IMG/VR virus record: IMGVR_UViG_3300045988_079583
Location: 50,885 to 114,884 of that record
DNA length: 64,000 nucleotides
Direction: 5' to 3' (one strand)
Source of the DNA: a virus
Of this stretch, positions 36,853 through 50,866 are shown one piece after another. Within the stretch, counting starts at the first letter, position 1. Every line of letters begins with the position of its first letter. The notes beneath the pieces were generated by a model. The model was not told the DNA's origin and ran no database searches. It saw only the letters and a program-made list of their open reading frames with translations. A program made the position numbers and the translations under genes.

Positions 36853-36870
36853 AATGTATTGAAATTAGTG

Positions 36871-37063: not shown

Positions 37064-37435
37064 TTATATCTTTCTTCTATTAAATAGTTTAAAATATTCA
37101 CTGGAATACACATTACATAGGTCCTTGTATCTTCTCGGCATAGGATAATCAAAATCATCAAATGCCGATTCCTTAATGAACCTATCATAGAGAGCCATGT
37201 TTGCTGTAGTAACAGCTGTGTTACAATTATGCTTCTTTCCCCATTCAACAATATTATTCATTATACTGTTGAAGTATGATGTATCATCATCTACTTGGAG
37301 ATAGATTTCTACTCTGCAAATTGCAGGATTTTTGAATCCTTGTCTTCCCTGCCTTAATTCTACTTTAGACACGTACTTAAGGTCTAGTAAATCTGCAATT
37401 CTTTCTTTAGCTATAATTCTAGAAATTCTTATCAT
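37064..37435 (-). CDS. hypothetical protein
   Basis: 123-aa ORF. Confidence 0.4.
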   Translation of the reverse strand: MIRISRIIAKERIADLLDLKYVSKVELRQGRQGFKNPAICRVEIYLQVDDDTSYFNSIMNNIVEWGKKHNCNTAVTTANMALYDRFIKESAFDDFDYPMPRRYKDLCNVYSSEYFKLFNRRKI

Positions 37436-37560
37436 CTTTGTTATATTTAATACGAAAACATTCTTTTATAGCTCCGCAGATTATTGCTACAACTGGTATA
37501 GCGCAAATCAATATAATGCTAATTTCTCCTCCGTCCATATTCTTAAAATTTAAATACTAG

Positions 37561-37644
37561 TGGGATAGGTAGGATTCGAACCTACTAAGCCTAAAGGCAA
37601 CGGATTTACAGTCCGTCCCAACTCACCATCGTTGGCGCTATCCC
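37561..37644 (-). tRNA. second tRNA with GUA anticodon (tRNA-Tyr-like), type II
   Basis: anticodon stem ACGGA/TCCGT, loop CTGTAAA, long variable arm; identity less certain. Confidence 0.55.
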
Positions 37645-37866
37645 GTAAAGCAATTAACAGATTTGTTCTAATTAACATAGCTACTACAATTCTTCCTCTT
37701 AGCATCCCAAGTCCTCTAGTAGCTAATAGCCGCAATGCGTGGTAACAATTTTAAGGAAATTTACCTCTGTTAATTGGAGTAATCAGGGATTCTTTCTAGA
37801 TAGGCACCCTATAGTTCTTATATCGTAAGACTATACTATTCTAGCGAATGATGATTACTTCTTTTG

Positions 37867-37939
37867 TCTGGATAGCAAGGTTCGAACTTGCGATCTCTGC
37901 ATCCCAAATGCAGCGTGTTACCAACTCCACCATACCCAG
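37867..37939 (-). tRNA. tRNA-Pro(UGG)
   Basis: C1-G72, anticodon stem CTGCA/TGCAG, loop TTTGGGA. Confidence 0.75.
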
Positions 37940-38007
37940 ATATAAGCACCTGTTTCACAACAGATACTTACTACAAAAAAAAAAGAAATTTAAGAAAACT
38001 ATTAAAG

Positions 38008-38081
38008 TGACCCCGCTGCGACTCGAACGCAGGACCCCCAAATTAAAAGTTTGGTGCTCTAGCCAGCTGAGCTACGAGGTC
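38008..38081 (-). tRNA. tRNA-Lys(UUU)
   Basis: anticodon stem CCAAA/TTTGG, loop CTTTTAA. Confidence 0.8.
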
Positions 38082-38289
38082 ATTCTTTCTTAATAAGAAC
38101 TATCTTATTAGATATAGTGCATAAGAGTAATGCTACCGCAAGCCAAGAGGCAGCAGAAAGCGCTAAAGATAGCACCAAATCTAATAGCGTGAAGATATAG
38201 ACTTTTTCTTTTTTGTATTGGTTTCTCTCATATACATAAAGCAGAAACCACGATGACAACACTCCCAAAAGGTAAATAAATAATACCAT
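38080..38289 (-). CDS. hypothetical small membrane protein
   Basis: 69-aa ORF, two TM helices. Confidence 0.3.
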   Translation of the reverse strand: MVLFIYLLGVLSSWFLLYVYERNQYKKEKVYIFTLLDLVLSLALSAASWLAVALLLCTISNKIVLIKKE

Positions 38290-38313
38290 ATCTTTATTTT
38301 TTTTAATTGTTAG

Positions 38314-38387
38314 TATCCCGTGAAGGATTCGAACCTTCGACCCACAGCTTAGAAGGCTGTTGCTCTATCCAACTGAGCTAACGGGAC
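38314..38387 (-). tRNA. tRNA-Arg(UCU)
   Basis: anticodon stem ACAGC/GCTGT, loop CTTCTAA. Confidence 0.75.
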
Positions 38388-38439
38388 ATCGTGTTCGCTA
38401 TTATATACAGCGAACTACGTTCTCCTTAGTTAATAATTG

Positions 38440-39399
38440 TTAAATATGTTCTTCTGCTATTAATGCATTTCCGCATGTGATTCTGTCTGAATCTTCTTCC
38501 TTGGATGGGACAAATACTATTACATCCCAGCCTTCTTCCAATAATGGCTGTTCAAACATGCGGTAAACATTGTAGTCAGAATAACCAGTAACTTCAAACC
38601 CGTTCTCGATGGCCGATGCTGTCTCATGTATTGGAGTTATTTTAACAATGAATTTATCCTTGTCAAATAAACTTGTCAATTCCTTTGCATCGAGTATAGT
38701 TTGTGCGGTTACTGGAAAGTTTAAAGTATACTTTCTGCCCTTAGGCATAGGTAACTTGTCAGCAATTTTGGATATTGCAGATAATGAAAGACTCCTAGAG
38801 TCAAATAACTCTAGCCTCTGCTTATCACTTGTGGAGTTGATGGATAACTGAAGACCTGCTTCTCCTCCATACAAGTCATTCTTGATGCTACACCAAACAT
38901 GAAGAAAATTCTCCAGTTTTGTATTAGCTCTCGGAAGCATAGTAGATACTACTGGATGTACTGTGTCAGCTCGTAACCCGCATCTTCTTACTACTCCTTT
39001 AAGGGCTATTCCAAATGCTAACACGTCTTGGTTCCAAGTCGGTTCTCCCATTCTTGCAAAGTGTACATTAAATCTTTCGGTGTATCGTACACTTTCGTTC
39101 TCTATAATAGTTCGGATTTGTCTTTCCATGTCTTCAATAGAAGCATTTCCATAAAATCCGAACTTTGGGACGTCGCAGAATTTGCAGTTCATAGGGCAAC
39201 CTTTCTGAGTTGAGATTGTTGCAACCCACTTCTTACTTAGGTTAACCTCAGTATTAGCCACTCCGTTAATCTCCTTAGTTAAACCCAAGAAGTTTGCCTT
39301 GATATTGTTCTCTTTACCATAGTCTCCTACGGTTAAGAACTCTAATTTATGCTCAGTGTCAACATAAATCTTTCCTGTGTGAGTTAATATTGTTTTCAT
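38440..39399 (-). CDS. radical SAM domain protein
   Basis: CPMNCKFCD (CxxxCxxC) cluster motif and GEP-like SAM-binding region in 319-aa ORF. Confidence 0.55.
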   Translation of the reverse strand: MKTILTHTGKIYVDTEHKLEFLTVGDYGKENNIKANFLGLTKEINGVANTEVNLSKKWVATISTQKGCPMNCKFCDVPKFGFYGNASIEDMERQIRTIIENESVRYTERFNVHFARMGEPTWNQDVLAFGIALKGVVRRCGLRADTVHPVVSTMLPRANTKLENFLHVWCSIKNDLYGGEAGLQLSINSTSDKQRLELFDSRSLSLSAISKIADKLPMPKGRKYTLNFPVTAQTILDAKELTSLFDKDKFIVKITPIHETASAIENGFEVTGYSDYNVYRMFEQPLLEEGWDVIVFVPSKEEDSDRITCGNALIAEEHI

Positions 39400-39676
39400 T
39401 AATCCTCAATCATTTTCCACATGATAATTATTACTATAAATACTGCTATGTACATGGCACAATTCTCCAGTCTAATCTCCCTCTAGTTATACGAAATTTG
39501 TCAGCTTCTGACCAGCTTCGGAAAGGTCTAATAACCTTTCCATAGCCGTCCAATAGATAGTATTTCATAATCTACAAGTTCTCCATTTATGTGAATTGTA
39601 CACAACGCTATATCTCCAACAATTATCATAGTTTCCACCATGATTATATTATTGTTAATCTCTGTGGTTCTTCTTA

Positions 39677-39916
39677 CTATTGCCATAGTTCAAATACTGT
39701 TTTTGTGAGTGGGTAATTCCCTTGCCATTTTGTTGCATATCTAAATATGCTTGAATTGTCCATACGACGCCAAGTAGATCGGAATAGCGGGAACAAAATC
39801 GCCATAACGATGAGTGCAAACACCAGAACTACAAAGGTTAATCCTTTTAGTATAAATTCTAGTAACCATACAGGCAAAGTTATTGCCCATCTAACAACTG
39901 TTAACAACTCGTTCAT
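39677..39916 (-). CDS. hypothetical membrane protein
   Basis: 79-aa ORF. Confidence 0.35.
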   Translation of the reverse strand: MNELLTVVRWAITLPVWLLEFILKGLTFVVLVFALIVMAILFPLFRSTWRRMDNSSIFRYATKWQGNYPLTKTVFELWQ

Positions 39917-40149
39917 TTTTCTACAATTATTAAGGTGTTATGGATTTTCATTTCCTCTTCTGAAATCGGAATTAATTCTCCAAATACTCTTATGTACTTT
40001 TGTTTATTAACTACTAAAGATGTTGTAATCTCAGTAATAGTCTCGATATTGTCATTATGCCAATTCTCGATATACTGAGCATGGATTCTTCTAGATAACT
40101 CATAGTTATCAGAGGATGCTAATCTGTTAATCTTAAATCTCTTTCTCAT
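39913..40149 (-). CDS. hypothetical protein
   Basis: 78-aa ORF. Confidence 0.35.
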   Translation of the reverse strand: MRKRFKINRLASSDNYELSRRIHAQYIENWHNDNIETITEITTSLVVNKQKYIRVFGELIPISEEEMKIHNTLIIVEK

Positions 40150-40229
40150 GGTAAATTTTCTTAATGTTAATCCTGACTACCTATTTCTAGGTAGTTTCGT
40201 CTTAATTTTCAAAGACTCATCAGAGGATT

Positions 40230-41027
40230 TTATCTGAAGAAGGCTACTATAGTAACATCTTCCTCTTTGTTACAATACATGTTCCAGGCCTTATTGATTA
40301 CTTCAATCTTTTCTACATTCCTGCTGGTTGCAGCAATCATGTTTCTAGCCTGCTTGTACATCGGTTTCCCAGAAGATGCCAGCATTTCAAAGAATGTTGA
40401 AACTGTTTTAACTGGATGTTCTAGCGAAATGATTAATAGGGCTGATACGGCTCCTATAATAGATGCCCCACATATTCCTTTCAACCCATTCTTAACGGCA
40501 GTACTACCAATGTATGAGCAACAATCATATATAAGACGGTTGTCAAGGTAAATTGTCAGTAGATCTTCCGGAGTGTGTTTCTTCCTTAGTTTACTGTAAG
40601 ACCCTTCGTCCAATGACTTTAATTGGTCTTTTAGCAACATGTGCTTGCCAACAATTGCAGCCTTTACTAAGGAATCTGTTACTCCAGCTATGCCAAATAC
40701 ATCTCCCATAGACCTACTCTTACCTTGGTCTATTGTAGTCCATGTTTTTCTCGGCACACCTGTAATGAGAATAGTATCAAAGGGTGTGTTAGCTTTTATA
40801 CACGCTAACAGTCTGTGATGGCCGTCAGACACGTCTCCATTCTCATCTAGTATTATGGATTCTCCATTTAATTCCCACTTTCCAGATGCCATCAGGTTGG
40901 CGTATTCAGTTACCCTACTTCTATTAATAGTTCTATTACCTTTAGATTTCCCATAAAGTCTTTCTGCGTCTTCAGGGTAAATTCTAACCGTTTTACATTT
41001 GATTGCTGAGTTTGTTAAGTTTTCCAT
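40230..41027 (-). CDS. ParB/Srx-fold (ParB-like nuclease domain) protein
   Basis: DGHHRLLACI motif in N-terminal domain of 265-aa ORF. Confidence 0.45.
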   Translation of the reverse strand: MENLTNSAIKCKTVRIYPEDAERLYGKSKGNRTINRSRVTEYANLMASGKWELNGESIILDENGDVSDGHHRLLACIKANTPFDTILITGVPRKTWTTIDQGKSRSMGDVFGIAGVTDSLVKAAIVGKHMLLKDQLKSLDEGSYSKLRKKHTPEDLLTIYLDNRLIYDCCSYIGSTAVKNGLKGICGASIIGAVSALLIISLEHPVKTVSTFFEMLASSGKPMYKQARNMIAATSRNVEKIEVINKAWNMYCNKEEDVTIVAFFR

Positions 41028-41608
41028 AATCTAAATTTTTTTTGCATTTTACACCTAAAACTTATATTTATAGCATTATACGGCATCAATTGACAAAGGC
41101 TTTAAATCCTTTTCGTTCATCTTTGAACTAATCAATCGAATTTACGATATAGTTTTGCTTTTCAATAAGAAACTGGTGCCCTCAATGTCTTGGGAAGTTA
41201 TTGAGTTTTTTAAATGTCAGTCTTCCAAAGGACGATAGTGTAAATACTTCTCCCATCTGACCGTGTAGTGATACTTAGTAGGCAAACACTAAGCGGAACT
41301 ACCTTGAACCTACTAGATCTCTCCTTTTTAGTTACCACATGCTTCAGCGTTCAATCTTCATGTGCAATCTTAAATTTGCCAATCTTTATAGCGTTGGCGT
41401 TATTTGCATTCTCTAATAGATATTATATTAGTCTTTGCAATAGTACATAAGGGTTTACCATTAGAATTAAGTGGCTGTATGAACCGCTCATCTTCATGGT
41501 ACTCATTACAGTATACATAGTCTTTACCGTAACGATAGTTAAATTCAATCTTATATTTCATATGCTAATTAAATGATGAAACTATTAGAGCTATCATTAC
41601 GATAGTTC

Positions 41609-42100
41609 CTACTCGTTTATCAGAGAGTTGCTAAAAATGCAGAGCAGGCAGTCAATTAGTTCTCCGAAACCTATTCCCTGATGATCGTTCTTCAGTTCGT
41701 CTGGAATCCAGTACAAAGCCTTTATCAGTTGCTGTATTTGAAGAGCATCGAAAGTTATGTCCCCGGCACTCTCTGCTTCTTCCAATATCTCTATGAAAGC
41801 CTCCATAGCAAAACAGCTAGCGTGAGAAAAGTGGTGAATGTTTCCATTCTTCTTCTTAAACAAAACGCCACGTTCGTCCGAGCCTATCACTCTGTCCTTG
41901 TTGCGGAACAACATTTCCATACAGGCATCGATTCTCATTCGTAATGCTTTGATGCACACCTCTCGCCATGCCATAACTACTTCATGCGGGCTGTAGCACT
42001 TGGCCTGCGACGTTGGATCTTCAACTGCTTTGAAAGGAATAGTAAACGACATTACGAATTCTGCGCGCTTGTTTACATGATCTAATGCTAATGTATTCAT
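41609..42100 (-). CDS. hypothetical protein
   Basis: 163-aa ORF. Confidence 0.4.
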   Translation of the reverse strand: MNTLALDHVNKRAEFVMSFTIPFKAVEDPTSQAKCYSPHEVVMAWREVCIKALRMRIDACMEMLFRNKDRVIGSDERGVLFKKKNGNIHHFSHASCFAMEAFIEILEEAESAGDITFDALQIQQLIKALYWIPDELKNDHQGIGFGELIDCLLCIFSNSLINE

Positions 42101-42269
42101 ATTATAAAAGTTTATAAGTTACTAAAAAAGTGCTGGTTTCTGTTTCACTTCTAAGCCAGCAAAGGACGAAGGGAGATGGGCTTACCATTCCAATTCTCTT
42201 TTTACATTCTCAACCTTATAAAGAGTAATTAGGTTAGCTAGTTTTAATTCACCAAGCTTGGAATTGTTG

Positions 42270-42494
42270 CTACTCGAGCAAGGAGTTCATCCCAGCAGTA
42301 TAAGCTCCCCATATTTCTTTGTAGATATTGCTACTTGAATCTGGGTCTTCTTCTAACATTTTAGCTAGTAATTCTCTCATTGCTTTTGTGAACTTTTCAA
42401 TACGTTTCAGTCTTTCTTCCATGGTAATTTTTCTTTTAATTGTTTTTGAACTATTAGTTTCAGCTTTAGTAAGCTTACTTATCTCCCAAACCAC
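42270..42494 (-). CDS. hypothetical protein
   Basis: 74-aa ORF. Confidence 0.35.
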   Translation of the reverse strand: MVWEISKLTKAETNSSKTIKRKITMEERLKRIEKFTKAMRELLAKMLEEDPDSSSNIYKEIWGAYTAGMNSLLE

Positions 42495-42782
42495 GTAACG
42501 GTTGTTCTTATCTTGGGAGTAGGAGACCTAAGTCTCCCAGTATGCACAATTGTTTCTCAACAACCTGCACCACTATGTACGATAAAAGAAGATGAATTAT
42601 CCTGTGCCTACAATCATTTAAGATTGTCTTCGATTGTTAGTACAATCTCACAATACTTTGCCTTATCTCACGATAAGACACCTCTATTCATAAGAGATGC
42701 TCTGCATTAGTCTCAGGGCGTACCCATTATAATCTTTAACTGCAACAGAGTCTACAAGTAGTTGTAGTCCTCAAATACCAAG

Positions 42783-42853
42783 TTCCCCATTCTGGACTCG
42801 AACCAGAATCTCCTTCTTTAGAGGAAGGCGCAATAGCATTATACTAATGGGGA
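42783..42853 (-). tRNA. amber suppressor tRNA, anticodon CUA, tRNA-Gln-like (copy 1)
   Basis: acceptor TCCCCAT/ATGGGGA (U1-A72), anticodon stem CCTTC/GAAGG, loop CTCTAAA (anticodon CUA reads UAG), 4-nt variable loop, T arm TCTGG-TTCGAGT-CCAGA. Confidence 0.65.
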
Positions 42854-43575
42854 AATCCTATCTTGACAACTAGTATAAGATAGGAGATTATTTAGTATGT
42901 TTTCCAGACATACAACGTTATCAACGTTCACTAAATTCTGAGGTAGCTAATCTCAAAACTTGCGAATAGATTCGAGATGGAAAATGACGCCTTATGAGCG
43001 TCTCTCTTACTATCTAGCCTATATCTATCTGATGGCTTACTTCAGGCAACTTCCAATATTGCATACGAATACTTATAGGTGATATACTTTGGTCTACCAG
43101 CATATCAGTGGTACTTTGTAATATTGCCATAAGTGACCATTCATATGGCTCAATCCTCTTGTAATAGTGTTCAAGTTTGCGAATATACACATTACAATCG
43201 TAGCAGTTATTTTCGGATATTGGGTTCTTCTGCGTAACCCGCTTTTTGTTACCTTTTTATAGGCAAATGTTAGAGTAAATAATCATTGTAGTATGTGTTA
43301 TAAAACTCATCCTACTGGCGATTTTTTGAGAACTGGAGAAAGTCGGAAAATCGGCTGTCTTTTGCGTGGACAATTTCTCTCAGCCCTTACCATATTTTCA
43401 CGTGCAACAATAGTCCCAATCTACATTAGAACCACATTACTTAATATAATACTAAAATAAAATAACTACGACGAATTGATTTTGAAGTTTTTGTTTTGTT
43501 TTGTTGTTTTCTCCGTTAACCAATGGTCCGATGATGGAGTTCATGTGGGTATCTTATTTTGAAACCCATAATACC

Positions 43576-43776
43576 TTAGGGTTCATCTATAAAGACTATT
43601 CTTACTATCTTCGGAATATCTTCTTCTGACTTTTGATAAGTCATAATCCAAGCCCAAGAAGTTTTGCAATAAACTCTATCGGCTTTGAAATTTAACTTTT
43701 CATCTGTCTCTGGGTCATAGATGGCTCCCCAGTGATACAAACATTTTTTAGTCTTGAACTTTTCTCTTGTGTTCAT
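43576..43776 (-). CDS. hypothetical protein
   Basis: 66-aa ORF. Confidence 0.35.
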   Translation of the reverse strand: MNTREKFKTKKCLYHWGAIYDPETDEKLNFKADRVYCKTSWAWIMTYQKSEEDIPKIVRIVFIDEP

Positions 43777-43827
43777 AACTACAAAGACTATTTGTATTTA
43801 AAAGAAAGGGGATTTCTCCCCAATCTT

Positions 43828-44322
43828 TTACTCGTAATCCTCAACCTCAAGTTTGTAAGTTTTCTTTACGTAAGCCGGAGTTGTATCCGACTTCGGAATG
43901 TCCTCTGTGCTGATACTTTTGATTGAAAATACTACTTTGTGGTCTATACACCAAACAAGGAAATTTGCATTTTCCAACGGTGTACTACCAACAGCCGGAG
44001 CGTTTTCGTCGATTTCCACACCTGCAAAGTGTTTTGCGCCGATAGATGCACCGTTATCAGTTGTGAAAGTAATAGGAATAAAACGGGCTTGCCCTTCTCT
44101 TTGTTGGGTCTGTGTGGTTAGTTCTACTTTGTTCATAGCGGCAAGGGAGAACTTGTCCCCCTTTTTCAAGCCAATCACAACCGAACGTTCATCACCATTT
44201 AAGCCTAAGTCTTTTACTACGCTTTTCGCGCGTTCTTCTATACTCACATTCTGATTTTTCAATTCTTCTAAGTTCATAACTGTAAATTTTAAAGGTTTAT
44301 ACTTGTTTTTTGTTTTTAACAC
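43828..44322 (-). CDS. hypothetical protein
   Basis: 164-aa ORF; first sizeable gene of the leftward block. Confidence 0.45.
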   Translation of the reverse strand: MLKTKNKYKPLKFTVMNLEELKNQNVSIEERAKSVVKDLGLNGDERSVVIGLKKGDKFSLAAMNKVELTTQTQQREGQARFIPITFTTDNGASIGAKHFAGVEIDENAPAVGSTPLENANFLVWCIDHKVVFSIKSISTEDIPKSDTTPAYVKKTYKLEVEDYE

Positions 44323-44424
44323 ACTAAAGCTGAATTATCGTAAAAGTCGTAATAACTTACTTCTCTTAAAACTTCTGCCAATGTGTAATCATACTCGTTT
44401 AATAAATCTTTTTCGTACATAGTT

Positions 44425-44699
44425 ATTTTATTTTTAGTTTTATATCAATATACAGGGGGGGACTAAGGGGGTTGTGGACCGTAACTACACTCACTCTTAT
44501 AATTTTCGGAATATAGGTCAGTACCTTCTCTATAAAAATCCGGACTTTATTTTAACCCCAGGGGGCTATTTATATAAAGTACCGGTACTTGTTTGCCAGT
44601 AACTAAATGAAATATGTATAATATTGGAATTAGAATTTTTTAACTTTGCGTTTAACTTTTGAGAGCTTATTGTTGTATATAACTAAAAAGAAAACAATT
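44425..44699. promoter_or_regulatory. divergent intergenic region between leftward and rightward gene blocks
   Basis: 275 nt without ORFs between first minus-strand gene (ends 44421) and first plus-strand gene (44700); contains G-runs CAGGGGGGGACTAAGGGGG and CCCCAGGGGG and AT-rich stretches. Confidence 0.35.
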
Positions 44700-45107
44700 A
44701 TGATTACAGACTTAGAAACTTTGTTAAATTAGGATGAGTTTAAAGAACTCGTTAAAGCAATTAATTAGAATCAAGAGTTTTATTGTTCAAAAAAAGGACT
44801 CACCATTAAATCAGAGTCTACTGATGATTCTCTATTCTTATTAATATCCTATGATAGATAGGAAGAAGAAAGTTGTTTAGCGAACAAGGAAGCAGATACA
44901 TTCCAAAAATATCTAGAATCTTTAGATGATGATTTATTTGTAGGAGTATGTGAATATTTGGGAGAAGATAATATTCATAGAATACAAGCATGTTTAGAGA
45001 GTGGTAAACTAGAAACAGTAAGAAGTGGGATTGCTAAGTTTAGAGAAGCTCTATCAAAATTAGTTAATCAACAAATTGAATATTTAAAATCATTGCTAAA
45101 TGTATGA
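44700..45107 (+). CDS. hypothetical protein with 3 in-frame TAG codons
   Basis: hand translation MITDLETLLN(TAG)DEFKELVKAIN(TAG)NQEF...LKSLLNV-TGA. Confidence 0.4.
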
Positions 45108-45240
45108 ACAAATAGCTCAAATAAGAATACTTCTTGCTAACTTGAATACTACTATGCAAGCATTATTCCAAGAAAATGAATAGCTAAAGAAAGAACTAGA
45201 GAGACTAACAGAAGAAAACAAATCTCTAAAGGAGAAATAA
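45100..45240 (+). CDS. small coiled-coil peptide with 1 in-frame TAG
   Basis: MYEQIAQIRILLANLNTTMQALFQENE(TAG)LKKELERLTEENKSLKEK-TAA; overlaps previous gene (ATGTATGA). Confidence 0.35.
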
Positions 45241-45244
45241 ATAC

Positions 45245-45316
45245 TGCCCTATGGTGTAATGGTCAGCACAGATGACTCTAAATCATTTAGTCTGGGTTCG
45301 AATCCTAGTAGGGCAA
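45245..45316 (+). tRNA. amber suppressor tRNA, anticodon CUA, tRNA-Gln-like (copy 2)
   Basis: TGCCCTA-TG-GTGT-AATGGTCA-GCAC-A-GATGA-CTCTAAA-TCATT-TAGT-CTGGG-TTCGAAT-CCTAG-TAGGGCA-A; U1-A72 and D region nearly identical to tRNA-Gln(UUG) at 30391-30462. Confidence 0.75.
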
Positions 45317-45333: not shown

Positions 45334-45561
45334 ATGATAAAATTAAATGAGAATTATGCAGTAACTCCAACTGGAGCTAAAACCCTCATTATTGAAGAGG
45401 GAGATGATTGGAATAAAGTTTGTGATAAGGTAGTTGGATGTAGGTTCGATTACATATTTATACCTCAAGAATTTGAGAATCAAGCCTGCTACTTTCTTCC
45501 ACAAATAACAGTTCAAGGAAAGCAGATAGGTAAAATATGTACTTATAAAGTAGTAAAATGA
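45334..45561 (+). CDS. hypothetical protein
   Basis: ATG at 45334 downstream of tRNA; track ORF 45259-45561 overlaps tRNA in its first part. Confidence 0.45.
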   Translation: MIKLNENYAVTPTGAKTLIIEEGDDWNKVCDKVVGCRFDYIFIPQEFENQACYFLPQITVQGKQIGKICTYKVVK

Positions 45562-45872
45562 AGCAATGCGCAGTTGTATTGAATGGTAATGATGTTATCA
45601 AGGTTTCCAACTTAAAAAGGAAATATGATAAAATAAAGAATAACCCTAATATGAAAATATTAGAGGAATGTGATATGGATATGTTAGATGAAAAATACAG
45701 CTACTGGAATAGAACTTTAAATAGAAATCCAGAAGAAGAGAAAAAAGAGGAGTCTAAATTACACCACTTTAGAAATCCCAAAACAGGGTGGTTAATAACT
45801 AGCATCTATCCAGACTTGGAAGATTGTAAGAATTATATAAAAGACTGGAGGGATTATGAAAGAATTGATTGA
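45558..45872 (+). CDS. hypothetical protein
   Basis: 104-aa ORF. Confidence 0.45.
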   Translation: MKQCAVVLNGNDVIKVSNLKRKYDKIKNNPNMKILEECDMDMLDEKYSYWNRTLNRNPEEEKKEESKLHHFRNPKTGWLITSIYPDLEDCKNYIKDWRDYERID

Positions 45873-46035
45873 GAGGTATCACGAACTTACTAATCCGAAG
45901 GTAGAATCTTTAGCAAGGGTTACATTAGTACTTATTGAAACCATTATTGAAGATATTGAAGAGAACGGAAGACAGAATGAACAATGGTTTCTGGATTACT
46001 TAGATAGACTAAATGAACTAAGTGTAACGCATTAA
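45856..46035 (+). CDS. hypothetical protein (59 aa)
   Basis: hand-found ORF MKELIERYHELTNPK... filling gap. Confidence 0.3.
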   Translation: MKELIERYHELTNPKVESLARVTLVLIETIIEDIEENGRQNEQWFLDYLDRLNELSVTH

Positions 46036-46037
46036 AT

Positions 46038-46277
46038 ATGTGGGATAGGGAATTTAAGTTTGAAGTCCTAATTAATGGACAATTATTAAATATGGTAAAG
46101 GCTAGTTATTTGGAAAGCATTTTAAAAAGCCTTCCGGAAAATAAATCCTTACTAATTGATATATGGAATGTAGTTGATAACTCCGTTAGAAATATAATCA
46201 AGAACGGACTATATAAAGATACCACAGTAGAAAAAGCTATAATTGATAATACATTTAAAGGATATGATAGACTTTAA
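46038..46277 (+). CDS. hypothetical protein
   Basis: 79-aa ORF. Confidence 0.4.
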   Translation: MWDREFKFEVLINGQLLNMVKASYLESILKSLPENKSLLIDIWNVVDNSVRNIIKNGLYKDTTVEKAIIDNTFKGYDRL

Positions 46278-46470
46278 AAAGACATTAACAAATTTACATG
46301 ATGAATTTCCAGAATTTGATTTGGATACATTATTCAAAATACTAGATGCTATAGTAGAAACTTATACTCCTACAATAAATATTCCAAGTAATATTAGACA
46401 ACCATCGGATAAACCTTGGTGGAATGATATAAATAGAATCACTTGTACTTATAATGCGAAAGTTAAATAA
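46243..46470 (+). CDS. hypothetical protein
   Basis: 75-aa ORF. Confidence 0.4.
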   Translation: MIIHLKDMIDFKKTLTNLHDEFPEFDLDTLFKILDAIVETYTPTINIPSNIRQPSDKPWWNDINRITCTYNAKVK

Positions 46471-46507
46471 AAATAGGCGAACCTAATCTCTAGGCTCGCC
46501 TATTTTG

Positions 46508-46699
46508 TTATATGATATAATACCAATCAGTTCTCTCCATAACTCCTTTTTCTCGGAGCTATTTATTATCCAAATGATAATCCCCATTTCTAAAGTTCAA
46601 TTCCTATTTATTATAATCCCAATAAAAATATCCCTTCCAGCCTGGAAGTAGTAGAGTACGACCAGTAGCTGCATGTAAAGTTGCTTTGTTATAGTCCAT
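46508..46699 (-). CDS. hypothetical protein with 2 in-frame TAG (63 aa)
   Basis: hand translation MDYNKATLHAATGRTLLLPGWKGYFYWDYNK(TAG)... Confidence 0.25.
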
Positions 46700-46774
46700 G
46701 TTACTTTTTAAATATAAATAGTAAATACAGATATATTCTCAATACAATCTCTTTAATGCACTTAATAATGTTTT

Positions 46775-47116
46775 TCATCGTTTCTTAGTTTTAATAAATC
46801 CATAATTTCCTTTCTTTAATCTAGTAGTAGGAATCCATCCATTATCTAATATAGACCTATGCCCTCCTGGTTTATGTATCTTAGCTCCGTCTTCGTGTTT
46901 CCATTTAGAAGCATTTCTAGCAAAATTAGCTCGCTTCTTCTAAAGAGGAGTAGCTTTAGGATTATTTAATACCTTTGTAGCGTGCTCTTGCACTGATTCT
47001 CCTGCAGCTTTAGCCGAGGCTGTAAATTTGCCTCTGTTCTCTTTCTTAATATGAATGCCTGATCCATTCTTGAAAATAGGACATCCAAATGTTGTAATTT
47101 TTCTACTGTTAGACAT
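46775..47116 (-). CDS. hypothetical basic protein with 1 in-frame TAG (113 aa)
   Basis: hand translation MSNSRKITTFGCPIFKNGSGIHIKKENRGKF...PL(TAG)KKRANFARNASKW...TKKR-TGA. Confidence 0.35.
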
Positions 47117-47230
47117 TTTTAATATAATGTATTATTTATTGATTTGTGTCTTACAAAGAATATTAATATACTTGAAAAGTATCAAATAAATATAGATAAA
47201 TGTGATAAATGATTAAATGAATTATGACTA

Positions 47231-48145
47231 ATGGACAAAAGTAAAATTACAAAACAAAATGGGAACATAGCTTTCGAGGAGGAGGCTCATATTTATTATG
47301 ATGTTACAGAGCCTGAACAGAAATTTATATCTGTGACGACTTTAATACATTCTTTCACCCAACCCTTTGACAAAGAGTTCTGGTCAGCCTATAAAGCATT
47401 AGAGAAACTTCTGTCTAAAGAAGATTGGGCTATTGAGAAAAAGTCATTACTGAATACTAAGAAATTTGACAAAGTTCTACTTGAGCTTCATAACATTACA
47501 GAAGACGAGTTTAATAAGGAACAACAAGCTATCTTAGATGCATGGGATTTAGAGAATAGGAACTCTTGCGAAAGAGGAACTAAGATTCATGCAGATTTAG
47601 AAAACTCTTTTTACAAAAAGAAAAAGAACATAGACCTTAGTAAATATCAAATAGGTGGTAAGTTTGAGTGTGTAAAAGACCATAATGAATTAGATTTAGA
47701 GAATGGGGTATATCCTGAGTATTTAATATCTAGAGTATCAGAAGATGGGAAACTTAGAATAGCTGGACAAATCGACTTGCTAGTTAAAAGAGGTAACAAG
47801 ATAATTATAGGAGACTGGAAAACCAATAAGAAGATAGAAACTAAGAGTTTCTTTAATTCTAAAACTAAATCATCAGTTAAGATGAAATATCCTCTAAATA
47901 ATTTAGATGATGTTAATTATTGGCATTATGCACTTCAATTAAGTACTTACGCCTGGATGATACAAAAAAAGAATCCGGAGTTTGAGATTGAAGATTTAGT
48001 ATTGGTTCACTTTGATCATAGTGATAATATGACAGTATATCATCTACCTTACCTAAAAGATGAAGTAATTAGAATGCTGTTGTTTTATAAAAAAGAATCT
48101 GTACTAGCTGAAAACAAAAGAAAACGTCAACGTATTGAATATTAA
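47231..48145 (+). CDS. PD-(D/E)xK family nuclease (RecB/Cas4/lambda-exonuclease-like)
   Basis: GQIDLLVKRGNKIIIGDWK (D...D/ExK) and YALQLSTYAWM (QxxxY) motifs. Confidence 0.55.
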   Translation: MDKSKITKQNGNIAFEEEAHIYYDVTEPEQKFISVTTLIHSFTQPFDKEFWSAYKALEKLLSKEDWAIEKKSLLNTKKFDKVLLELHNITEDEFNKEQQAILDAWDLENRNSCERGTKIHADLENSFYKKKKNIDLSKYQIGGKFECVKDHNELDLENGVYPEYLISRVSEDGKLRIAGQIDLLVKRGNKIIIGDWKTNKKIETKSFFNSKTKSSVKMKYPLNNLDDVNYWHYALQLSTYAWMIQKKNPEFEIEDLVLVHFDHSDNMTVYHLPYLKDEVIRMLLFYKKESVLAENKRKRQRIEY

Positions 48146-48147
48146 TT

Positions 48148-48363
48148 ATGACATTAGAAGAAATTGAAGAACGGTGGAAAATATGTAGACGATGTCCTAT
48201 ATGCGACCAAGATAATGGATTATGTAATGGAAATTTATATCTAAATCCAAAAAATAATGATATAAGTATAGGACCAAAAGAAGGTTATATAAAAGGATGC
48301 GGATGTCTACTAGAGAAGAAGATTCCAAACGAGAAAAAACATTGTCCTGCAGGGAAATGGTAA
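48148..48363 (+). CDS. small Cys-rich (zinc-ribbon-like) protein
   Basis: CRRCPICDQDNGLC...GCGCLLEKKIPNEKKHCPAGKW. Confidence 0.4.
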   Translation: MTLEEIEERWKICRRCPICDQDNGLCNGNLYLNPKNNDISIGPKEGYIKGCGCLLEKKIPNEKKHCPAGKW

Positions 48364-48680
48364 TGTACGGAACTCCCGTACTGTATAGACCTGATAAGGC
48401 TTACGTACTTACTTATCAGGAAACAAAAGAAGAAAATAAAGAAGATATGACAGAAAAATGGATTAAGGCAATATTTACTAAGCCTCTAACAATATTAAAG
48501 AGTATATATTTTAATATATTTGGAATAAATCAAGATTTAGCAACCAAGAGATTAAAGATTTGTAATACTTGTCCTCACAAGTTATATACTTCTGTTGGAG
48601 AAGTATGTGAGGAATGTGGTTGTATATTAGAGAATAAAACTAGAATAGAAGATGAACATTGTGATTTATGTAAATGGTAA
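48357..48680 (+). CDS. small Cys-rich protein, paralog of upstream gene
   Basis: C-terminus ICNTCPHKLY...CEECGCILENKTRIEDEHCDLCKW parallels previous ORF; start taken at first ATG after upstream stop. Confidence 0.4.
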   Translation: MVMYGTPVLYRPDKAYVLTYQETKEENKEDMTEKWIKAIFTKPLTILKSIYFNIFGINQDLATKRLKICNTCPHKLYTSVGEVCEECGCILENKTRIEDEHCDLCKW

Positions 48681-48688
48681 AATGAATT

Positions 48689-49414
48689 ATGGAAAATTTA
48701 AGAACAGAATTAAACAGTAACGAGAAACTAGCCTTATCTTTGACCGGAATGGAAGGAACAGGAGAACACTTTATTTTAAATGGTGAAGCTGCAGATAAGA
48801 CATTACTTAGAGAGAAACAAGAAAGATTTAATACAGCGGTAGATGAAATAGAAGATAAATTCTCAAAACATAATAAGGCTTTAGAGGATTACGCTAATTC
48901 ATTATCAGAAGATATGAATGGTGTAGAGATTATGCCTATGTATGGATATGCTCTTATCAAGCCGTTTGAACAGAACCCATTCCAAAAAATTAAGACTACT
49001 AAATCAGGATTAATTACAGACTTAGGAGGGTTTGCTCCAACATACAAGTCTAACGAGACTGGAGAAATTGAGGAAGAACAACAGTTTATCAAGGTAGGTA
49101 CTGTAGTAGAGGTAGGTCACAAGTGTGAGTTCTTAAAGCCTGGTGATATTGTATTCTATACTATAGCTAGTGAATGTATGGTTCCATTTTACAAACTAGG
49201 ATTCGTAGTAGTTAATGAGAATAGAATCATGGCTGTAGTTAATGAGAAACTAACTGAAAGAAGAGACCAAATTAAGCAATCTCAAGACTGTATAAATGTA
49301 GATATAGATAAGATCCCAAAAGAGCTTGGAGATAGCTTACCTGAGAGAATAAAGAATTGGATAGAATACAAAAAGATAGGAATTAATTTACTTAGAGAAG
49401 ATGGAAACAATTGA
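48689..49414 (+). CDS. hypothetical protein (C-terminal half weakly GroES/gp31-like)
   Basis: 241-aa ORF; beta-rich C-terminal region with VKVGTVVEVG...GDIVFY pattern. Confidence 0.4.
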   Translation: MENLRTELNSNEKLALSLTGMEGTGEHFILNGEAADKTLLREKQERFNTAVDEIEDKFSKHNKALEDYANSLSEDMNGVEIMPMYGYALIKPFEQNPFQKIKTTKSGLITDLGGFAPTYKSNETGEIEEEQQFIKVGTVVEVGHKCEFLKPGDIVFYTIASECMVPFYKLGFVVVNENRIMAVVNEKLTERRDQIKQSQDCINVDIDKIPKELGDSLPERIKNWIEYKKIGINLLREDGNN

Positions 49415-49624
49415 TGAGAAAGTTTATTTCAAACCTGGGGATTGTGTTACTTTACGGTAGTGTAAGGTAATGCATTCTCCAGTAATGCTTGTTCTGAGAA
49501 GAGAATCAGCATTATTTAAAGATAACCAGGGATTGCGCGGACTTAGATGTAGATGGTTTACTGATTCTGGACTGATGCAAGAAGCAGTATTTAATACAAA
49601 AGACTTAATTAAAGTAGAAGAATA

Positions 49625-50839
49625 ATGGCGAAAATACAATTTGATCCAGAGTTAATGTAGCATATCAAGACTATATATGGAGACGCAGAGTTAGACGGAA
49701 GAACTTTACAACAGTTGCATTAGACTTGGCAAAGTAATCCGAACTCTATTAGAAATACTGCATAGTAGAAGAAAAGAAGTGCTGTGCCAGCTATACAACA
49801 AAAACCTATATTAGGATTAAAGCTGTCTACTCCTACTATTCCTAAGAAAATAAATGCACCTTAGCAACAAATTCAAAACGACGACTTAAGAGGAGTCTAG
49901 GGGTTTGGTACGGCATTTAGAGAAGCCAGAAAGAGAGGACTAACTCAATTCAAATGGGGGAAAGGAGTGTATGGAACATAGTTAGCTAATGGAAAGAAAG
50001 CAACAGTAGAGGTAGGAACTCCAGTAATGAATAATCCCTATGTTACATATAGTCAAGACGGAAAAAGAGCTACTACGTACCAAAATCAAGTAGACTAGGA
50101 AACTGGAGAGCATACTGGAACTATCCAAGAACAATGGATAAAGCCGCCTACAACTAATATGTATGGGCAGAAACTAACTCCAGAATAGCTCAAAAATTAG
50201 AGAAGTTGGGAACATATACCAAAGGCAACTGCTAGATAGCAACGAGTTAAATATCAACAAGGAGGAGCAATGGCTAATTAGGAAGAATTACAAAAAGCAT
50301 TTATGGCATACTTAATACAGGATGCCGCAGCACAAGGAATACAATTACAATCTGAGTAGGATTTAGAACAATATGCTCAGCAATTAGGAGAAGACGGAAT
50401 TAAAGCCAAATACCAGGAATTTATGCAAAAAATGCAAGGTGGGGTTATGGCTAGATTAGGAGCTAAGCTTGAGTACTATAAAAAATTAAAAGGAGTTTGC
50501 CCAGAAGGGGAAGAGCTTGTTTATTTTAAACAAGGAGGGAGAATATGTAAAGCCTGCCAGAAAGCTTAGAAAGGTGCCAAGGTAAAAGGTAACGAGGTAG
50601 ACAAATTTAAGAAAGGAAGAGCACAGTATAAGAAAGATATGAAATCAGCGAAAGATGAAGCTTCCAGAGATTCTATATCTATCAATAAGTATAATGATTA
50701 GGAAACCATGTCTAATAAAGGACATAAAGGAAACTTCCAAAAGGGAAAATGGGTTCCTGATAGAAAGCAATATACTAAAAAGGATGCTTGTGGCTCTAAA
50801 ATGAAAGTAAGCAAGTGTGGCTCTAAAATGAAGAAGTAA
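49625..50839 (+). CDS. hypothetical protein, first gene of TAG-recoded structural module (404 aa, many in-frame TAG)
   Basis: single frame open from ATG 49625 to TAA 50837-50839 if TAG is read through; Gln-rich; no TAA/TGA in frame. Confidence 0.5.
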
Positions 50840-50866
50840 GAAAAGATTGTCGAATGTTAATGATTA

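What the first reader, a model, noticed from the sequence alone, without database searches (positions are those of the whole stretch)
42783..45316. Two tRNA-Gln-derived amber suppressor tRNAs (anticodon CUA) flanking the divergent control region
Two genes fold into complete cloverleafs with anticodon loop CUCUAAA, so anticodon CUA reads UAG. They are 42783-42853 on the minus strand and 45245-45316 on the plus strand. Both share U1-A72, the D region TGGTGTAATGG/TAGTATAATG and a 4-nt variable loop with the bona fide tRNA-Gln(UUG) gene at 30391-30462. They sit on either side of the ORF-free divergent region (44425-44699). Each transcription direction therefore carries its own suppressor, and the plus-strand copy lies immediately upstream of the first standard-code plus-strand genes. 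Two small ORFs just upstream of that copy (44700-45240) themselves need TAG read-through.
Basis: seen in the sequence. Interest (0 to 1): 0.8.

Follow-up and report, generated by a model that had tools for sequence, protein, structure and literature searches.

The report
Two amber-suppressor tRNAs, crAss-like phage
This is part of a large crAss-like gut phage that reads the stop codon TAG as glutamine in its late genes and carries two tRNAs for that job, which is a well-documented phage strategy; what looks new is that the second tRNA sits directly after an orphan structured RNA and changes its anticodon between related phages.

Summary
ARAGORN and Rfam both find complete tRNAs with anticodon CUA at 42783-42853(-) ("SupA") and 45245-45316(+) ("SupB").

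The window comes from a crAss-like phage whose IMG/VR relatives are 178-193 kb. Its late genes, including terminase and portal, use TAG for 53% of glutamine-type codons. The minus-strand block and the plus-strand genes at 45.3-49.4 kb contain no in-frame TAG. In relatives, TAG positions alternate almost only with CAA/CAG, so TAG means Gln.

SupB belongs to a known suppressor family:
- Its homologs in RefSeq crAss-like phages are annotated tRNA-Gln but carry CUA.
- It is nearly invariant across 28 related loci.

SupA is different:
- It has no significant database relative.
- It keeps a covarying cloverleaf, yet its anticodon is CUA, UUA or CUG in relatives, and the gene is damaged or lost in some.
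- It always follows a RAGATH-14 RNA.

The D-arm and U1-A72 features it cited are not specific to Gln.

Verdict: an ordinary new member of a known kind (code-15 phage recoding), with a modestly novel SupA/RAGATH-14 module.

The parts
45245..45316 (+). SupB: amber suppressor tRNA(CUA) of tRNA-Gln type. Probably the main suppressor.
   Evidence: ARAGORN. Rfam 66.3 bits. Differs by 0-1 nt in 27 related loci, with a diverged copy in L017 whose acceptor-stem changes are compensatory. Homologous CUA tRNAs are annotated tRNA-Gln in cr7_1, cr124_1 and cr60_1, and it is 83% identical to Mycobacterium phage Wildcat tRNA-Gln(CUG).
42783..42853 (-). SupA: a second, divergent tRNA(CUA) that is evolutionarily labile.
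   Evidence: ARAGORN. Rfam 56.5 bits. The window allele lacks G18G19 in the D-loop. Orthologs keep the cloverleaf: 94.8% of cells paired against about 50% in slid controls, and 6 pairs with changes on both sides. The anticodon varies among CUA, UUA and CUG, and the gene is damaged or lost in some relatives.
42854..42881 (-). Hairpin between RAGATH-14 and SupA. It ends 2-3 nt before tRNA position 1.
   Evidence: The stem CCTATCTT/AAGATAGG in the window is replaced by CTCCACCT/AGGTGGAG and other variants in relatives. Some relatives have an inserted inner hairpin (sequences).
42882..43054 (-). RAGATH-14 RNA (Rfam RF03145).
   Evidence: 166.3 bits against a gathering score of 149.1, full-length match. 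Present directly 5' of the SupA slot in all 29 related loci.
43055..43400 (-). Conserved structured non-coding stretch upstream of RAGATH-14.
   Evidence: Conservation 0.64-0.85. Variable sites show no codon periodicity (64/65/58). RNAalifold, run on 43055-43330 only, finds 14 pairs kept through changes on both sides.
44422..44699 (.). Divergent intergenic region and strand switch.
   Evidence: No credible ORF. GC-skew sign change. The stretch 44450-44700 is 0.70-0.93 conserved with invariant motifs.
44700..45107 (+). Head ORF g44700 (135 aa, function unknown) with 3 in-frame TAG.
   Evidence: Conserved in all relatives, with TAG at codons 11 and 54 invariant. Codon periodicity in variable sites. 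No Pfam or PHROG match.
45100..45240 (+). Head ORF g45100 (46-aa coiled-coil peptide) with 1 in-frame TAG. Its stop codon lies 4 nt before SupB.
   Evidence: In relatives the TAG sits at codon 4, 20 or 28, and is absent only in L011.
45334..49414 (+). TAG-free plus-strand block, compatible with either code. Includes a PD-(D/E)XK nuclease at 47231-48145.
   Evidence: 0 TAG among 30 Gln-type codons. Pfam and PHROG matches.
49401..63420 (+). TAG-recoded late block, the client of the suppressors. Includes TerL at 51436-53796 and portal at 53994-56168.
   Evidence: 132 TAG of 249 Gln-type codons, up to 28 per ORF. PHROG terminase E 8e-63 and portal E 2e-47 on the TAG-to-Q translations. ORF coverage in 48-64 kb rises from about 0.3 to about 0.95 when TAG is read through.
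1..44277 (-). Minus-strand block: auxiliary genes, at least 25 tRNAs and a tmRNA-like gene. Essentially free of in-frame TAG.
   Evidence: 0 TAG among 165 Gln-type codons in 21 large ORFs. 5 of 71 ORFs end in TAG, and 4 of those have TAA or TGA within 0-3 codons.
30391..30462 (-). The phage's own sense tRNA-Gln(UUG), used as comparator.
   Evidence: 71% identical to SupB and 54% to SupA.

Best explanation
The window is part of a large crAss-like (Crassvirales, probably Zeta-group) phage that uses genetic code 15 in part of its genome.

The phage supplies its own amber-suppressor tRNAs. They are presumably transcribed, trimmed by host RNase P and RNase Z, given CCA by the host enzyme (none is encoded), and charged with glutamine by the host GlnRS. 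They then compete with release factor 1 at UAG.

Genes on the minus strand and the plus-strand genes at 45.3-49.4 kb avoid in-frame TAG, so they are translated correctly under either code. The packaging and structural genes from 49.4 kb on, and two small ORFs at the head of the plus-strand block, can only be completed once suppressor tRNA is present. UAG therefore works as a translational gate on late functions.

SupB is the conserved principal suppressor. It is of tRNA-Gln(CUG) type with G36 changed to A, and it sits inside the plus-strand gene string, 4 nt after one ORF and 17 nt before the next. SupA is a clade-specific second copy that adds dosage or is partly redundant. It lies at the 3' end of a structured non-coding locus that contains RAGATH-14.

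Shown here: tRNA anatomy, TAG distribution, TAG=Gln by codon substitution, conservation patterns, homology of SupB.

Inferred: charging by GlnRS, processing, timing, and the relative contribution of the two tRNAs.
For: - Both tRNAs are real, with anticodon CUA.
- TerL and portal are whole only if TAG is read through. ORF coverage in 48-64 kb rises from 0.27-0.32 to 0.93-0.96, against 0.31-0.41 for TGA read-through.
- TAG is 53% of Gln-type codons in late genes and 0% in the minus-strand large ORFs and in 45334-49414.
- TAG means Gln. Of 263 aligned non-TAG codons in relatives at window TAG positions, 228 are CAA or CAG. In TerL, 6 of 16 TAG positions are invariant and 10 alternate only with CAA/CAG.
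- SupB is nearly invariant in relatives whose neighbouring protein is only 64-78% identical.
- The only phage-database matches of the 2.7-kb region fall on SupB, plus one weak match (H39) inside RAGATH-14. All but one of the listed annotated SupB hits are called tRNA-Gln. The three crAss-like ones inspected carry CUA, and Wildcat carries CUG.
- SupB's acceptor stem differs from a Bacteroidales tRNA-Gln(UUG) by one compensated pair, and its D-arm by one base. The discriminator A73 is the same.
- One SupA ortholog (L003) reads CUG, the Gln codon CAG.
- Published work describes the same system in crAss-like and Zeta phages and confirms TAG=Q by metaproteomics (PMC7886860; bioRxiv 10.1101/2021.08.26.457843; PMC9523058; PMC12386605).
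Against: - There is no expression, charging or proteomic data for this phage.
- Nothing in the window would weaken RF1: no release factor or GlnRS was found among the ORFs scanned. ORFs with up to 28 UAGs need very efficient suppression, so part of the mechanism is missing.
- The two TAG-containing ORFs lie upstream of SupB in the same gene string, which does not fit a simple 'suppressor first, clients later' order.
- SupA's amino-acid identity is unproven. The window allele lacks G18G19, and SupA has no significant homolog.
Confidence: 0.85

Rival explanations
1. SupA is not a working decoder. It would be either a tRNA-like processing module that defines the 3' end of the RAGATH-14-containing RNA through RNase P cleavage, or a redundant duplicate drifting towards loss. 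SupB alone would carry out TAG decoding.
For: SupA always sits 2-3 nt after a covarying hairpin that closes the RAGATH-14 locus. RAGATH-14 persists where the tRNA is internally deleted (L019) or absent (L020). The anticodon loop is the variable part: CUA, UUA, CUG, a 6-nt loop in L022/L024 and an 8-nt loop in L013. The acceptor and T arms stay paired through compensatory changes. The window allele lacks G18G19. No database relative.
Against: 19 of the 36 contigs examined keep an intact CUCUAAA loop, and 10 more have an intact CUUUAAA loop. The three intact anticodons (CUA, UUA, CUG) are exactly the classical tRNA-Gln suppressor and sense series, which suggests selection on decoding rather than drift. 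The anticodon stem also covaries.
Confidence: 0.3
2. The suppressors serve mainly as an anti-host weapon. Read-through of host UAG stops would damage host, including defence, proteins. Decoding of phage genes would be secondary.
For: Proposed in PMC7886860 and PMC12386605. The latter lists Zeta phages that carry a CTA suppressor without any recoding. Two copies would strengthen such an effect.
Against: In this phage the decoding role is obligatory. There are 132 in-frame TAGs in late genes, including TerL and portal. The two roles do not exclude each other.
Confidence: 0.15
3. One reading: each transcription direction needs and carries its own suppressor.
For: The geometry is real and conserved. 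One CUA tRNA lies on each side of the strand switch in most relatives.
Against: tRNAs act in trans. The minus-strand genes have no in-frame TAG. The minus-strand copy is lost, damaged or changed in anticodon in many relatives while SupB never is.
Confidence: 0.05
4. They are pyrrolysine tRNAs, as ARAGORN labels them.
For: Only the anticodon CUA.
Against: TAG alternates with CAA/CAG, not with Lys codons. Both have a normal 5-bp anticodon stem, a 4-nt variable loop and a canonical TTCGA T-loop. No PylS or PylBCD was found among the ORFs scanned.
Confidence: 0.01

Closest known systems
Amber-suppressor tRNA(CUA) of crAss-like phages, annotated 'tRNA-Gln' in RefSeq (cr7_1 NC_055895, cr124_1 NC_055899, cr60_1 NC_055891; Suoliviridae)
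   Same: SupB is 82-83% identical to these three over the whole tRNA. It shares the acceptor 5' strand TGCCCTA, the D-arm, the variable loop TAGT and the anticodon CUA.
   Different: They come from a different phage family and context: next to dUTPase in cr7_1 and cr124_1, and next to a tRNA-Met in cr60_1. Here SupB sits after two TAG-containing small ORFs at the head of the late arm, and a second, unrelated CUA tRNA is present.
Stop-codon recoding (code 15, TAG to Gln) of late genes in gut phages (Ivanova 2014; Yutin 2021 PMC7886860; Borges 2021/22 bioRxiv 10.1101/2021.08.26.457843; Peters 2022 PMC9523058)
   Same: Early and replication genes are compatible with the standard code, and structural and packaging genes are rich in TAG. 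The phage encodes the suppressor tRNA. No phage GlnRS was found.
   Different: This window has two non-identical suppressors, and a small TAG-containing ORF pair upstream of one of them. No release factor or 'code change module' was found in the window.
Zeta crAss-like phages (proposed Echekviridae; PMC12386605, Table 1, amber members of 176-189 kb with 23-27 tRNAs and a CTA suppressor)
   Same: Relatives of the window are 178-193 kb and carry a large tRNA block. They show amber recoding, a CTA suppressor and mobile HNH elements.
   Different: Membership was not tested by phylogeny. That paper lists anticodon types only and does not mention duplicate CTA genes, TTA variants or RAGATH-14.
E. 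coli glutamine suppressors supE (glnV, CUG to CUA) and supB (glnU, UUG to UUA) (textbook genetics, from my own knowledge)
   Same: The SupA slot shows the same series of states, CUG, CUA and UUA, each one base apart. SupB looks like a CUG-type tRNA-Gln with G36 changed to A.
   Different: These are natural, fixed alleles in phage lineages rather than laboratory mutants. The charging enzyme of the Bacteroidales host has not been studied for these tRNAs.
Large structured phage RNAs that lie next to tRNA genes (GOLLD, ROOL; from my own knowledge of Weinberg et al. 2009 and 2017)
   Same: A conserved structured non-coding RNA locus in a phage, directly adjacent to a tRNA.
   Different: RAGATH-14 is a separate Rfam family of unknown function. 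Here the neighbour is specifically a suppressor-type tRNA, separated only by one hairpin.

Membership tests
Phage-encoded amber suppressor tRNA serving code-15 recoding | Complete tRNA cloverleaf with anticodon CUA | tested here: met
   ARAGORN. Rfam 56.5 and 66.3 bits.
Phage-encoded amber suppressor tRNA serving code-15 recoding | In-frame TAG in conserved essential genes that are full-length only with read-through | tested here: met
   TerL has 16 TAG and portal 28. The PHROG matches span the recoded proteins. ORF coverage test.
Phage-encoded amber suppressor tRNA serving code-15 recoding | TAG positions correspond to glutamine in homologs | tested here: met
   228 of 263 alternative codons are CAA or CAG. 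10 of 10 variable TerL TAG positions alternate only with CAA/CAG.
Phage-encoded amber suppressor tRNA serving code-15 recoding | A block of genes without in-frame TAG that is readable by the host code | tested here: met
   0 of 165 and 0 of 30 Gln-type codons are TAG. ORFs that end in TAG have back-up stops.
Phage-encoded amber suppressor tRNA serving code-15 recoding | The tRNA is expressed, charged with Gln and inserts Gln at UAG | not testable with these tools
   Needs tRNA-seq, acid-gel northern blots or proteomics. Peters 2022 (PMC9523058) showed TAG=Q for other crAss-like phages.
tRNA-Gln descent (SupB) | Closest homologs are tRNA-Gln genes | tested here: met
   All but one of the listed annotated phage-database hits to SupB are called tRNA-Gln. 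It is 83% identical to Wildcat tRNA-Gln(CUG). It is closest to Gln(UUG) within the window, at 71%.
tRNA-Gln descent (SupB) | Gln-type acceptor end and D-arm as in host-clade tRNA-Gln (U1-A72, G2-C71, G10, A73) | tested here: met
   Compared with Bacteroidales and Prevotella tRNA-Gln genes. Pair 3-70 is C-G where the closest of them (L135) has A-U, and this is the one compensated change. Caveat: the D-arm motif and U1-A72 alone are not specific to Gln.
tRNA-Gln descent (SupA) | Closest homologs are tRNA-Gln genes | tested here: not met
   No significant hit. The best are partial matches to tRNA-Thr at E 0.01. It is 54% identical to the window's Gln(UUG), below its identity to Gly, Met and Thr.
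tRNA-Gln descent (SupA) | Behaves as a glutamine acceptor | tested here: inconclusive
   The L003 ortholog has CUG (Gln), and the UUA and CUA states match the Gln suppressor series. U1-A72 and A73 are invariant. Pairs 2-71 and 3-70 are C-G. There is no direct test.
tRNA-Pyl | 6-bp anticodon stem, 3-nt variable loop, tiny D-loop, atypical T-loop, and pylS/pylBCD genes nearby | tested here: not met
   5-bp anticodon stem, 4-nt variable loop and TTCGA T-loop. TAG alternates with Gln codons.
Crassvirales (Zeta group) | crAss-type TerL and portal | tested here: met
   phrog_6681 at E 8e-63 and phrog_6547 at E 2e-47. The named tblastn hits are mostly crAss-like phages, plus Flavobacterium phages and unannotated faecal contigs, all below 60% identity.
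Crassvirales (Zeta group) | Placement inside the Zeta clade, and a genome of 145-192 kb | tested here: inconclusive
   Related IMG/VR contigs are 178-193 kb, matching PMC7886860 and PMC12386605. No phylogeny was run, and no near match exists in the annotated phage collection.
RAGATH-14 RNA (RF03145) | Score at or above Rfam's gathering threshold over the full model | tested here: met
   166.3 against 149.1 bits, model positions 1-190.

The most novel reading that the evidence does not exclude
The SupA slot is not a spare copy. It would be an evolvable anticodon cassette fused to a roughly 0.6-kb structured RNA (RAGATH-14 plus its conserved 5' extension). Lineages switch it between amber (CUA), ochre-type (UUA) and sense Gln (CUG), so that some phages run an amber and an ochre-type suppressor together. 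That could be a step towards reassigning a second stop codon, or a regulated read-through programme. In parallel, the TAG-containing head ORFs that lie in the same gene string as SupB would form a feed-forward switch, in which the first products of suppression help commit the cell to the late programme.
Probability: 0.12. Interest if true: 0.7.

Novelty: new member of a known kind. Interest (0 to 1): 0.35.

Why it matters
Phage-driven switching of the host cell's genetic code is an active topic, but its outline is established: suppressor tRNA plus TAG-rich late genes. This window adds another clear example rather than a new principle.

Three details are worth a specialist's attention:
1. A clade of about 36 large crAss-like genomes keeps two unrelated suppressor genes under very different selection. 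One is frozen. The other keeps changing its anticodon (CUA, UUA, CUG) or is lost.
2. The orphan Rfam family RAGATH-14 gets a concrete home. It lies immediately 5' of that variable suppressor in this phage clade, inside a longer structured RNA.
3. Suppression must be very efficient, with up to 28 UAGs per ORF, yet no RF1 antagonist was found among the window ORFs that were scanned. How such phages beat release factor 1 remains the open question.

There is also a practical point. RefSeq annotates the SupB-type suppressors of other crAss-like phages as ordinary tRNA-Gln.

Tried and rejected
- Near-identity search of 42-50 kb against the annotated phage collection: no match. The phage itself is not in that collection.
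The motif is mostly in tRNA-His and tRNA-Leu, so it was rejected as a diagnostic. Global identity also ranks His slightly above Gln for SupB, through a one-base offset in the acceptor stem. This was resolved with acceptor and discriminator features and with the phage-database hits.
- U1-A72 as a Gln marker: rejected, because five of this phage's own non-suppressor tRNAs have it (Leu, Thr, Met, Asn and Gln itself).
- TAA recoding in the lineages whose SupA is UUA: no in-frame TAA in three late genes of L018, L021, L027 and L029, and no clear shift in stop-codon use.
- Suppressors or RAGATH-14 near TerL in the next-closest phages (MT835470, MT835539; TerL 44-46% identical): none.
- Two extra hits of the RAGATH-14 DNA pattern (L042, L060): chance matches, one of them inside an ORF.
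- Function of the head ORFs and neighbours in Pfam and PHROGs: nothing beyond coiled-coil noise.
- A phage release factor, GlnRS or other translation factor among the larger window ORFs: none.
- Literature on RAGATH-14: no paper in the library mentions it, and the supplements of Weinberg 2017 are not held.
- Sigma-70-type promoter and terminator scan of 42-46 kb: counts close to the shuffled expectation, so not used.
Full report
OBSERVATION. ARAGORN finds 27 tRNA genes and a tmRNA-like gene in the window. Two of the tRNAs have anticodon CUA: 42782-42853(-) and 45245-45317(+). I call them SupA (minus strand) and SupB (plus strand). Both have the anticodon loop CUCUAAA, U1-A72, discriminator A73, a 4-nt variable loop and no encoded CCA. 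All other tRNAs are on the minus strand between 14 and 38 kb. GC skew changes sign at about 44 kb. The stretch 44422-44699 has no credible ORF.

WHAT THE GENOME IS. The plus-strand ORFs beyond 49.4 kb are intact only if TAG is read through. ORF coverage of 48-64 kb rises from 0.27-0.32 to 0.93-0.96, against 0.31-0.41 for TGA read-through. Individual ORFs carry up to 28 in-frame TAGs. Translated with TAG as Q, 51436-53796 is a large terminase (phrog_6681, E 8e-63) and 53994-56168 a portal protein (phrog_6547, E 2e-47). tblastn of the terminase against the phage collection finds mostly crAss-like phages, plus Flavobacterium phages and unannotated faecal contigs. All hits are below 60% identity, and the best are two unannotated human-faecal contigs at 44-46%. 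No near match exists in that collection. A protein next to the strand switch recovers 29 IMG/VR loci on contigs that are mostly 178-193 kb. That size range, together with the large tRNA block and the mobile HNH genes, fits the Zeta group of crAss-like phages (PMC7886860; PMC12386605). I did not run a phylogeny, so the Zeta assignment is an inference.

TAG MEANS GLUTAMINE, AND ONLY SOME GENES USE IT. At window TAG positions in five genes, orthologs in the relatives have TAG 565 times, CAA 149 times, CAG 79 times and anything else 35 times. In TerL, 6 of the 16 TAG positions are invariant, and the other 10 alternate exclusively with CAA or CAG. CAA is two changes away from TAG, so this is not mere mutational proximity. 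TAG makes up 132 of 249 Gln-type codons (53%) in the late block. It makes up 0 of 165 in 21 large minus-strand ORFs and 0 of 30 in the plus-strand ORFs 45334-49414. In the two small ORFs at 44700-45240 it makes up 4 of 13. Only 5 of 71 minus-strand ORFs end in TAG, and 4 of those have TAA or TGA within 0-3 codons. Those genes therefore give almost the same protein under either code. This is the pattern published for recoded gut phages (PMC7886860; bioRxiv 10.1101/2021.08.26.457843). It was confirmed by metaproteomics for other crAss-like phages (PMC9523058).

SupB. In 27 of the 28 related loci that cover its position, the tRNA is identical to SupB or differs by one base. Over the same loci the neighbouring protein is 64-78% identical, and flanking DNA is 0.8-0.9 conserved. 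The 28th locus, L017, has a diverged copy with compensatory changes in the acceptor stem.

A blastn search of window 42700-45400 against the phage collection matches almost only the SupB segment; one weak hit (H39) falls inside RAGATH-14. All but one of the listed annotated SupB hits are called tRNA-Gln. The three crAss-like examples I inspected (cr7_1, cr124_1, cr60_1; Suoliviridae) actually carry CUA. Mycobacterium phage Wildcat's 83%-identical gene carries CUG. Against a tRNA-Gln(UUG) gene from a Bacteroidales MAG, SupB differs by one compensated pair in the acceptor stem and by one base in the D-arm, and shares A73.

SupB is therefore a tRNA-Gln(CUG)-type molecule with G36 changed to A. 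It belongs to a suppressor family already present, though mislabelled, in public crAss-like genomes. It sits 4 nt after the stop codon of ORF 45100-45240 and 17 nt before the next start codon, and the 4-5 nt upstream spacing is conserved in all relatives. It therefore appears to be embedded in the plus-strand gene string. That it is co-transcribed is an inference.

SupA. SupA is only 64% identical to SupB and 54% to the window's tRNA-Gln(UUG). That is no closer than its identity to tRNA-Gly or tRNA-Met. It has no significant relative in the phage collection: the best hits are partial matches to tRNA-Thr at E 0.01. The window allele lacks the G18G19 pair of the D-loop.

Its orthologs fall into several sequence types that keep the cloverleaf. 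94.8% of cells are paired, against about 50% when the partners are slid. Six pairs change on both sides, and U1-A72 is invariant. So the fold is under selection. The anticodon is not fixed:
- CUA in 19 contigs;
- UUA in 10;
- CUG in one (L003);
- a 6-nt loop in L022 and L024;
- an 8-nt loop in L013, and an aberrant copy in L017;
- an internal deletion in L019;
- no tRNA at all in L020.

Alleles do not follow the divergence of the neighbouring protein. L025 and L026 carry the window's allele next to a protein that is only 65% identical, which suggests recombination. The states CUG, CUA and UUA are one step apart and mirror the classical E. coli glutamine series glnV/supE/supB (my own knowledge). 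This is indirect support for glutamine identity. I found no in-frame TAA in three late genes of four UUA lineages, and stop-codon usage does not differ clearly.

THE NEIGHBOURHOOD OF SupA. Rfam places a full-length RAGATH-14 RNA (RF03145, 166.3 bits against a gathering score of 149.1) at 42882-43054(-). Between it and SupA lies one hairpin whose stem covaries among relatives and which ends 2-3 nt before tRNA position 1. RAGATH-14 is present in all 29 loci, including those that lack the tRNA. Every genuine match of a strict RAGATH-14 pattern in IMG/VR falls in this phage clade. The 350 nt upstream (43055-43400) are conserved and show no codon periodicity. An RNAalifold run on 43055-43330 contains 14 pairs maintained through double changes. 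SupA is thus the 3' element of a structured non-coding locus of about 0.6 kb. No paper in the library mentions RAGATH-14.

THE HEAD OF THE PLUS-STRAND BLOCK. The intergenic segment 44450-44700 is strongly conserved. It contains invariant G-rich and palindromic motifs and a TAACTTTG element that matches the Bacteroides -7 consensus. The consensus is from my own knowledge, and the match is not statistically meaningful on its own.

The ORFs 44700-45107 and 45100-45240 are conserved in every relative, and their variable sites show codon periodicity. The first always has TAG at codons 11 and 54. The second has one TAG at codon 4, 20 or 28, and none only in L011. With TAG at 53% of Gln-type codons in the recoded class, at least one TAG among 4-5 Gln positions is expected. 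I therefore read this simply as membership of the recoded class, not as special selection. Neither protein matches a known family.

MECHANISM. I judge the standard model the best supported (confidence 0.85). The phage's suppressor tRNAs are processed and charged with Gln by host enzymes and decode UAG in competition with RF1. Late functions are therefore made only when suppressor is abundant. SupB is the conserved workhorse. SupA adds dosage or is partly redundant.

What is not explained:
- how ORFs with up to 28 UAGs escape RF1, since no release factor, GlnRS or obvious antagonist was found in the window;
- why two recoded ORFs precede SupB;
- what RAGATH-14 does.

The main rival for SupA is that it is a processing module or a decaying duplicate (0.3). 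The anti-host reading (0.15) is compatible with the main model but cannot be the principal role here. The direction-specific idea (0.05) and the pyrrolysine label (0.01) are contradicted by the TAG distribution and by the codon substitutions.

The coordinates, the anticodons, the read-through requirement of the two head ORFs and the TAG-free genes after SupB are all right. The Gln origin is right for SupB and unproven for SupA. The cited similarities are not diagnostic. The D-arm motif occurs mostly in tRNA-His and tRNA-Leu (41 and 19 of 74, against 13 Gln). U1-A72 occurs in five of this phage's own non-suppressor tRNAs (Leu, Thr, Met, Asn and Gln itself).

NOVELTY AND SCORE. This is a new member of a known kind. 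Suppressor tRNAs with late-gene TAG-to-Gln recoding are documented for crAss-like phages, including the Zeta group (PMC12386605, Table 1). SupB-type genes already sit in RefSeq. The modestly new points are the two-gene architecture with opposite evolutionary behaviour, the anticodon switching at the SupA slot, and the link between RAGATH-14 and a suppressor tRNA. Interest 0.35.

CAVEATS. Most related contigs come from one IMG dataset and are not independent. Only 20 kb of each was available. All statements about expression, processing, charging and timing are inferences.

Noticed in passing
window 42882-43054(-), with 42854-42881 and 43055-43400: A full-length RAGATH-14 RNA (Rfam RF03145) lies directly 5' of SupA, joined to it by one covarying hairpin. 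It is preceded by about 350 nt of conserved, non-coding, covarying sequence. This looks like one structured RNA locus of about 0.6 kb. It is present in all 29 related loci, even where the tRNA is gone. All genuine IMG/VR matches to a strict pattern are in this phage clade.
   Followed up: partly
L018, L021, L027, L029, L031, L041, L043, L056, L059, L061 (SupA slot); L003; L013; L017; L022/L024; L019; L020: In relatives the SupA slot carries UUA (ochre-type) in 10 contigs and CUG (Gln) in one. Others have aberrant loops, an internal deletion or complete loss. SupB stays CUA throughout. No in-frame TAA was seen in three late genes of the four UUA lineages checked.
   Followed up: partly
L184 304-375, L185 304-375, L186 306-380 (RefSeq NC_055895, NC_055899, NC_055891): Genes annotated 'tRNA-Gln' in RefSeq crAss-like phages cr7_1, cr124_1 and cr60_1 have anticodon CUA. 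They are amber suppressors homologous to SupB.
   Followed up: yes
window 22042-22556(-): A tmRNA-like gene of about 515 nt. ARAGORN gives the tag peptide VQQKDDRATVLNLKAKG**, and Rfam tmRNA scores 56.3 bits against a gathering score of 47. It sits inside the phage tRNA block. The Zeta-phage paper consulted does not mention tmRNA.
   Followed up: no
window 26198-26278(-) and 24245-24317(-): Two tRNA-like genes found by Rfam but not by ARAGORN. One has a 10-nt insert in the anticodon loop (a possible intron). The other has a UGC anticodon and three mismatched acceptor pairs. 26034-26113 (Met) also has a long insert before the T-arm.
   Followed up: no
window 44430-44475, 44553-44590, 44641-44661: Motifs in the divergent intergenic region that are invariant across all relatives: CAGGGGGGGACTAAGGGGG, CCCCAGGGGG, the 10-bp palindrome GTACCGGTAC, and a twice-repeated TTTAACTTT that includes TAACTTTG (like the Bacteroides -7 box). 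These are candidate promoter, operator or origin elements.
   Followed up: no
L009, L012, L014, L018 (full length); disrupted in L003 and L019; about 0.7-1.55 kb upstream of SupB: A 282-283-aa ORF with an HNH-endonuclease-like C-terminus is inserted between the divergent region and the first head ORF in some relatives. It is absent from the window. This is a mobile-element polymorphism.
   Followed up: no
window 17436-17930, 30623-30847, 39677-39916, 41609-42100 (all minus strand): The few minus-strand ORFs that end in TAG have a TAA or TGA 0-3 codons downstream, so they give nearly the same protein with or without suppression.
   Followed up: yes
L121 (GTDB 'uncultured Clostridium sp.' MAG contig, 153,247 bp): Carries a tRNA-Gln(UUG) identical to window 30391-30462. 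It is probably a phage genome of this clade binned into a bacterial MAG.
   Followed up: no
window 4777-6339, 7471-8295, 8733-9749, 31011-32984, 38440-39399 (all minus strand): Auxiliary genes in the standard-code block: a nicotinamide/nicotinate phosphoribosyltransferase, two SPFH/Band-7 proteins, an OmpA-like beta-barrel protein and a weak radical-SAM match (below Pfam's cut-off).
   Followed up: no
L183 14001-18311 (MT835539.1): The terminase gene of the next-closest phage is split into three pieces over 4.3 kb. This is consistent with the intron and intein load reported for Zeta crAss-like phages.
   Followed up: no
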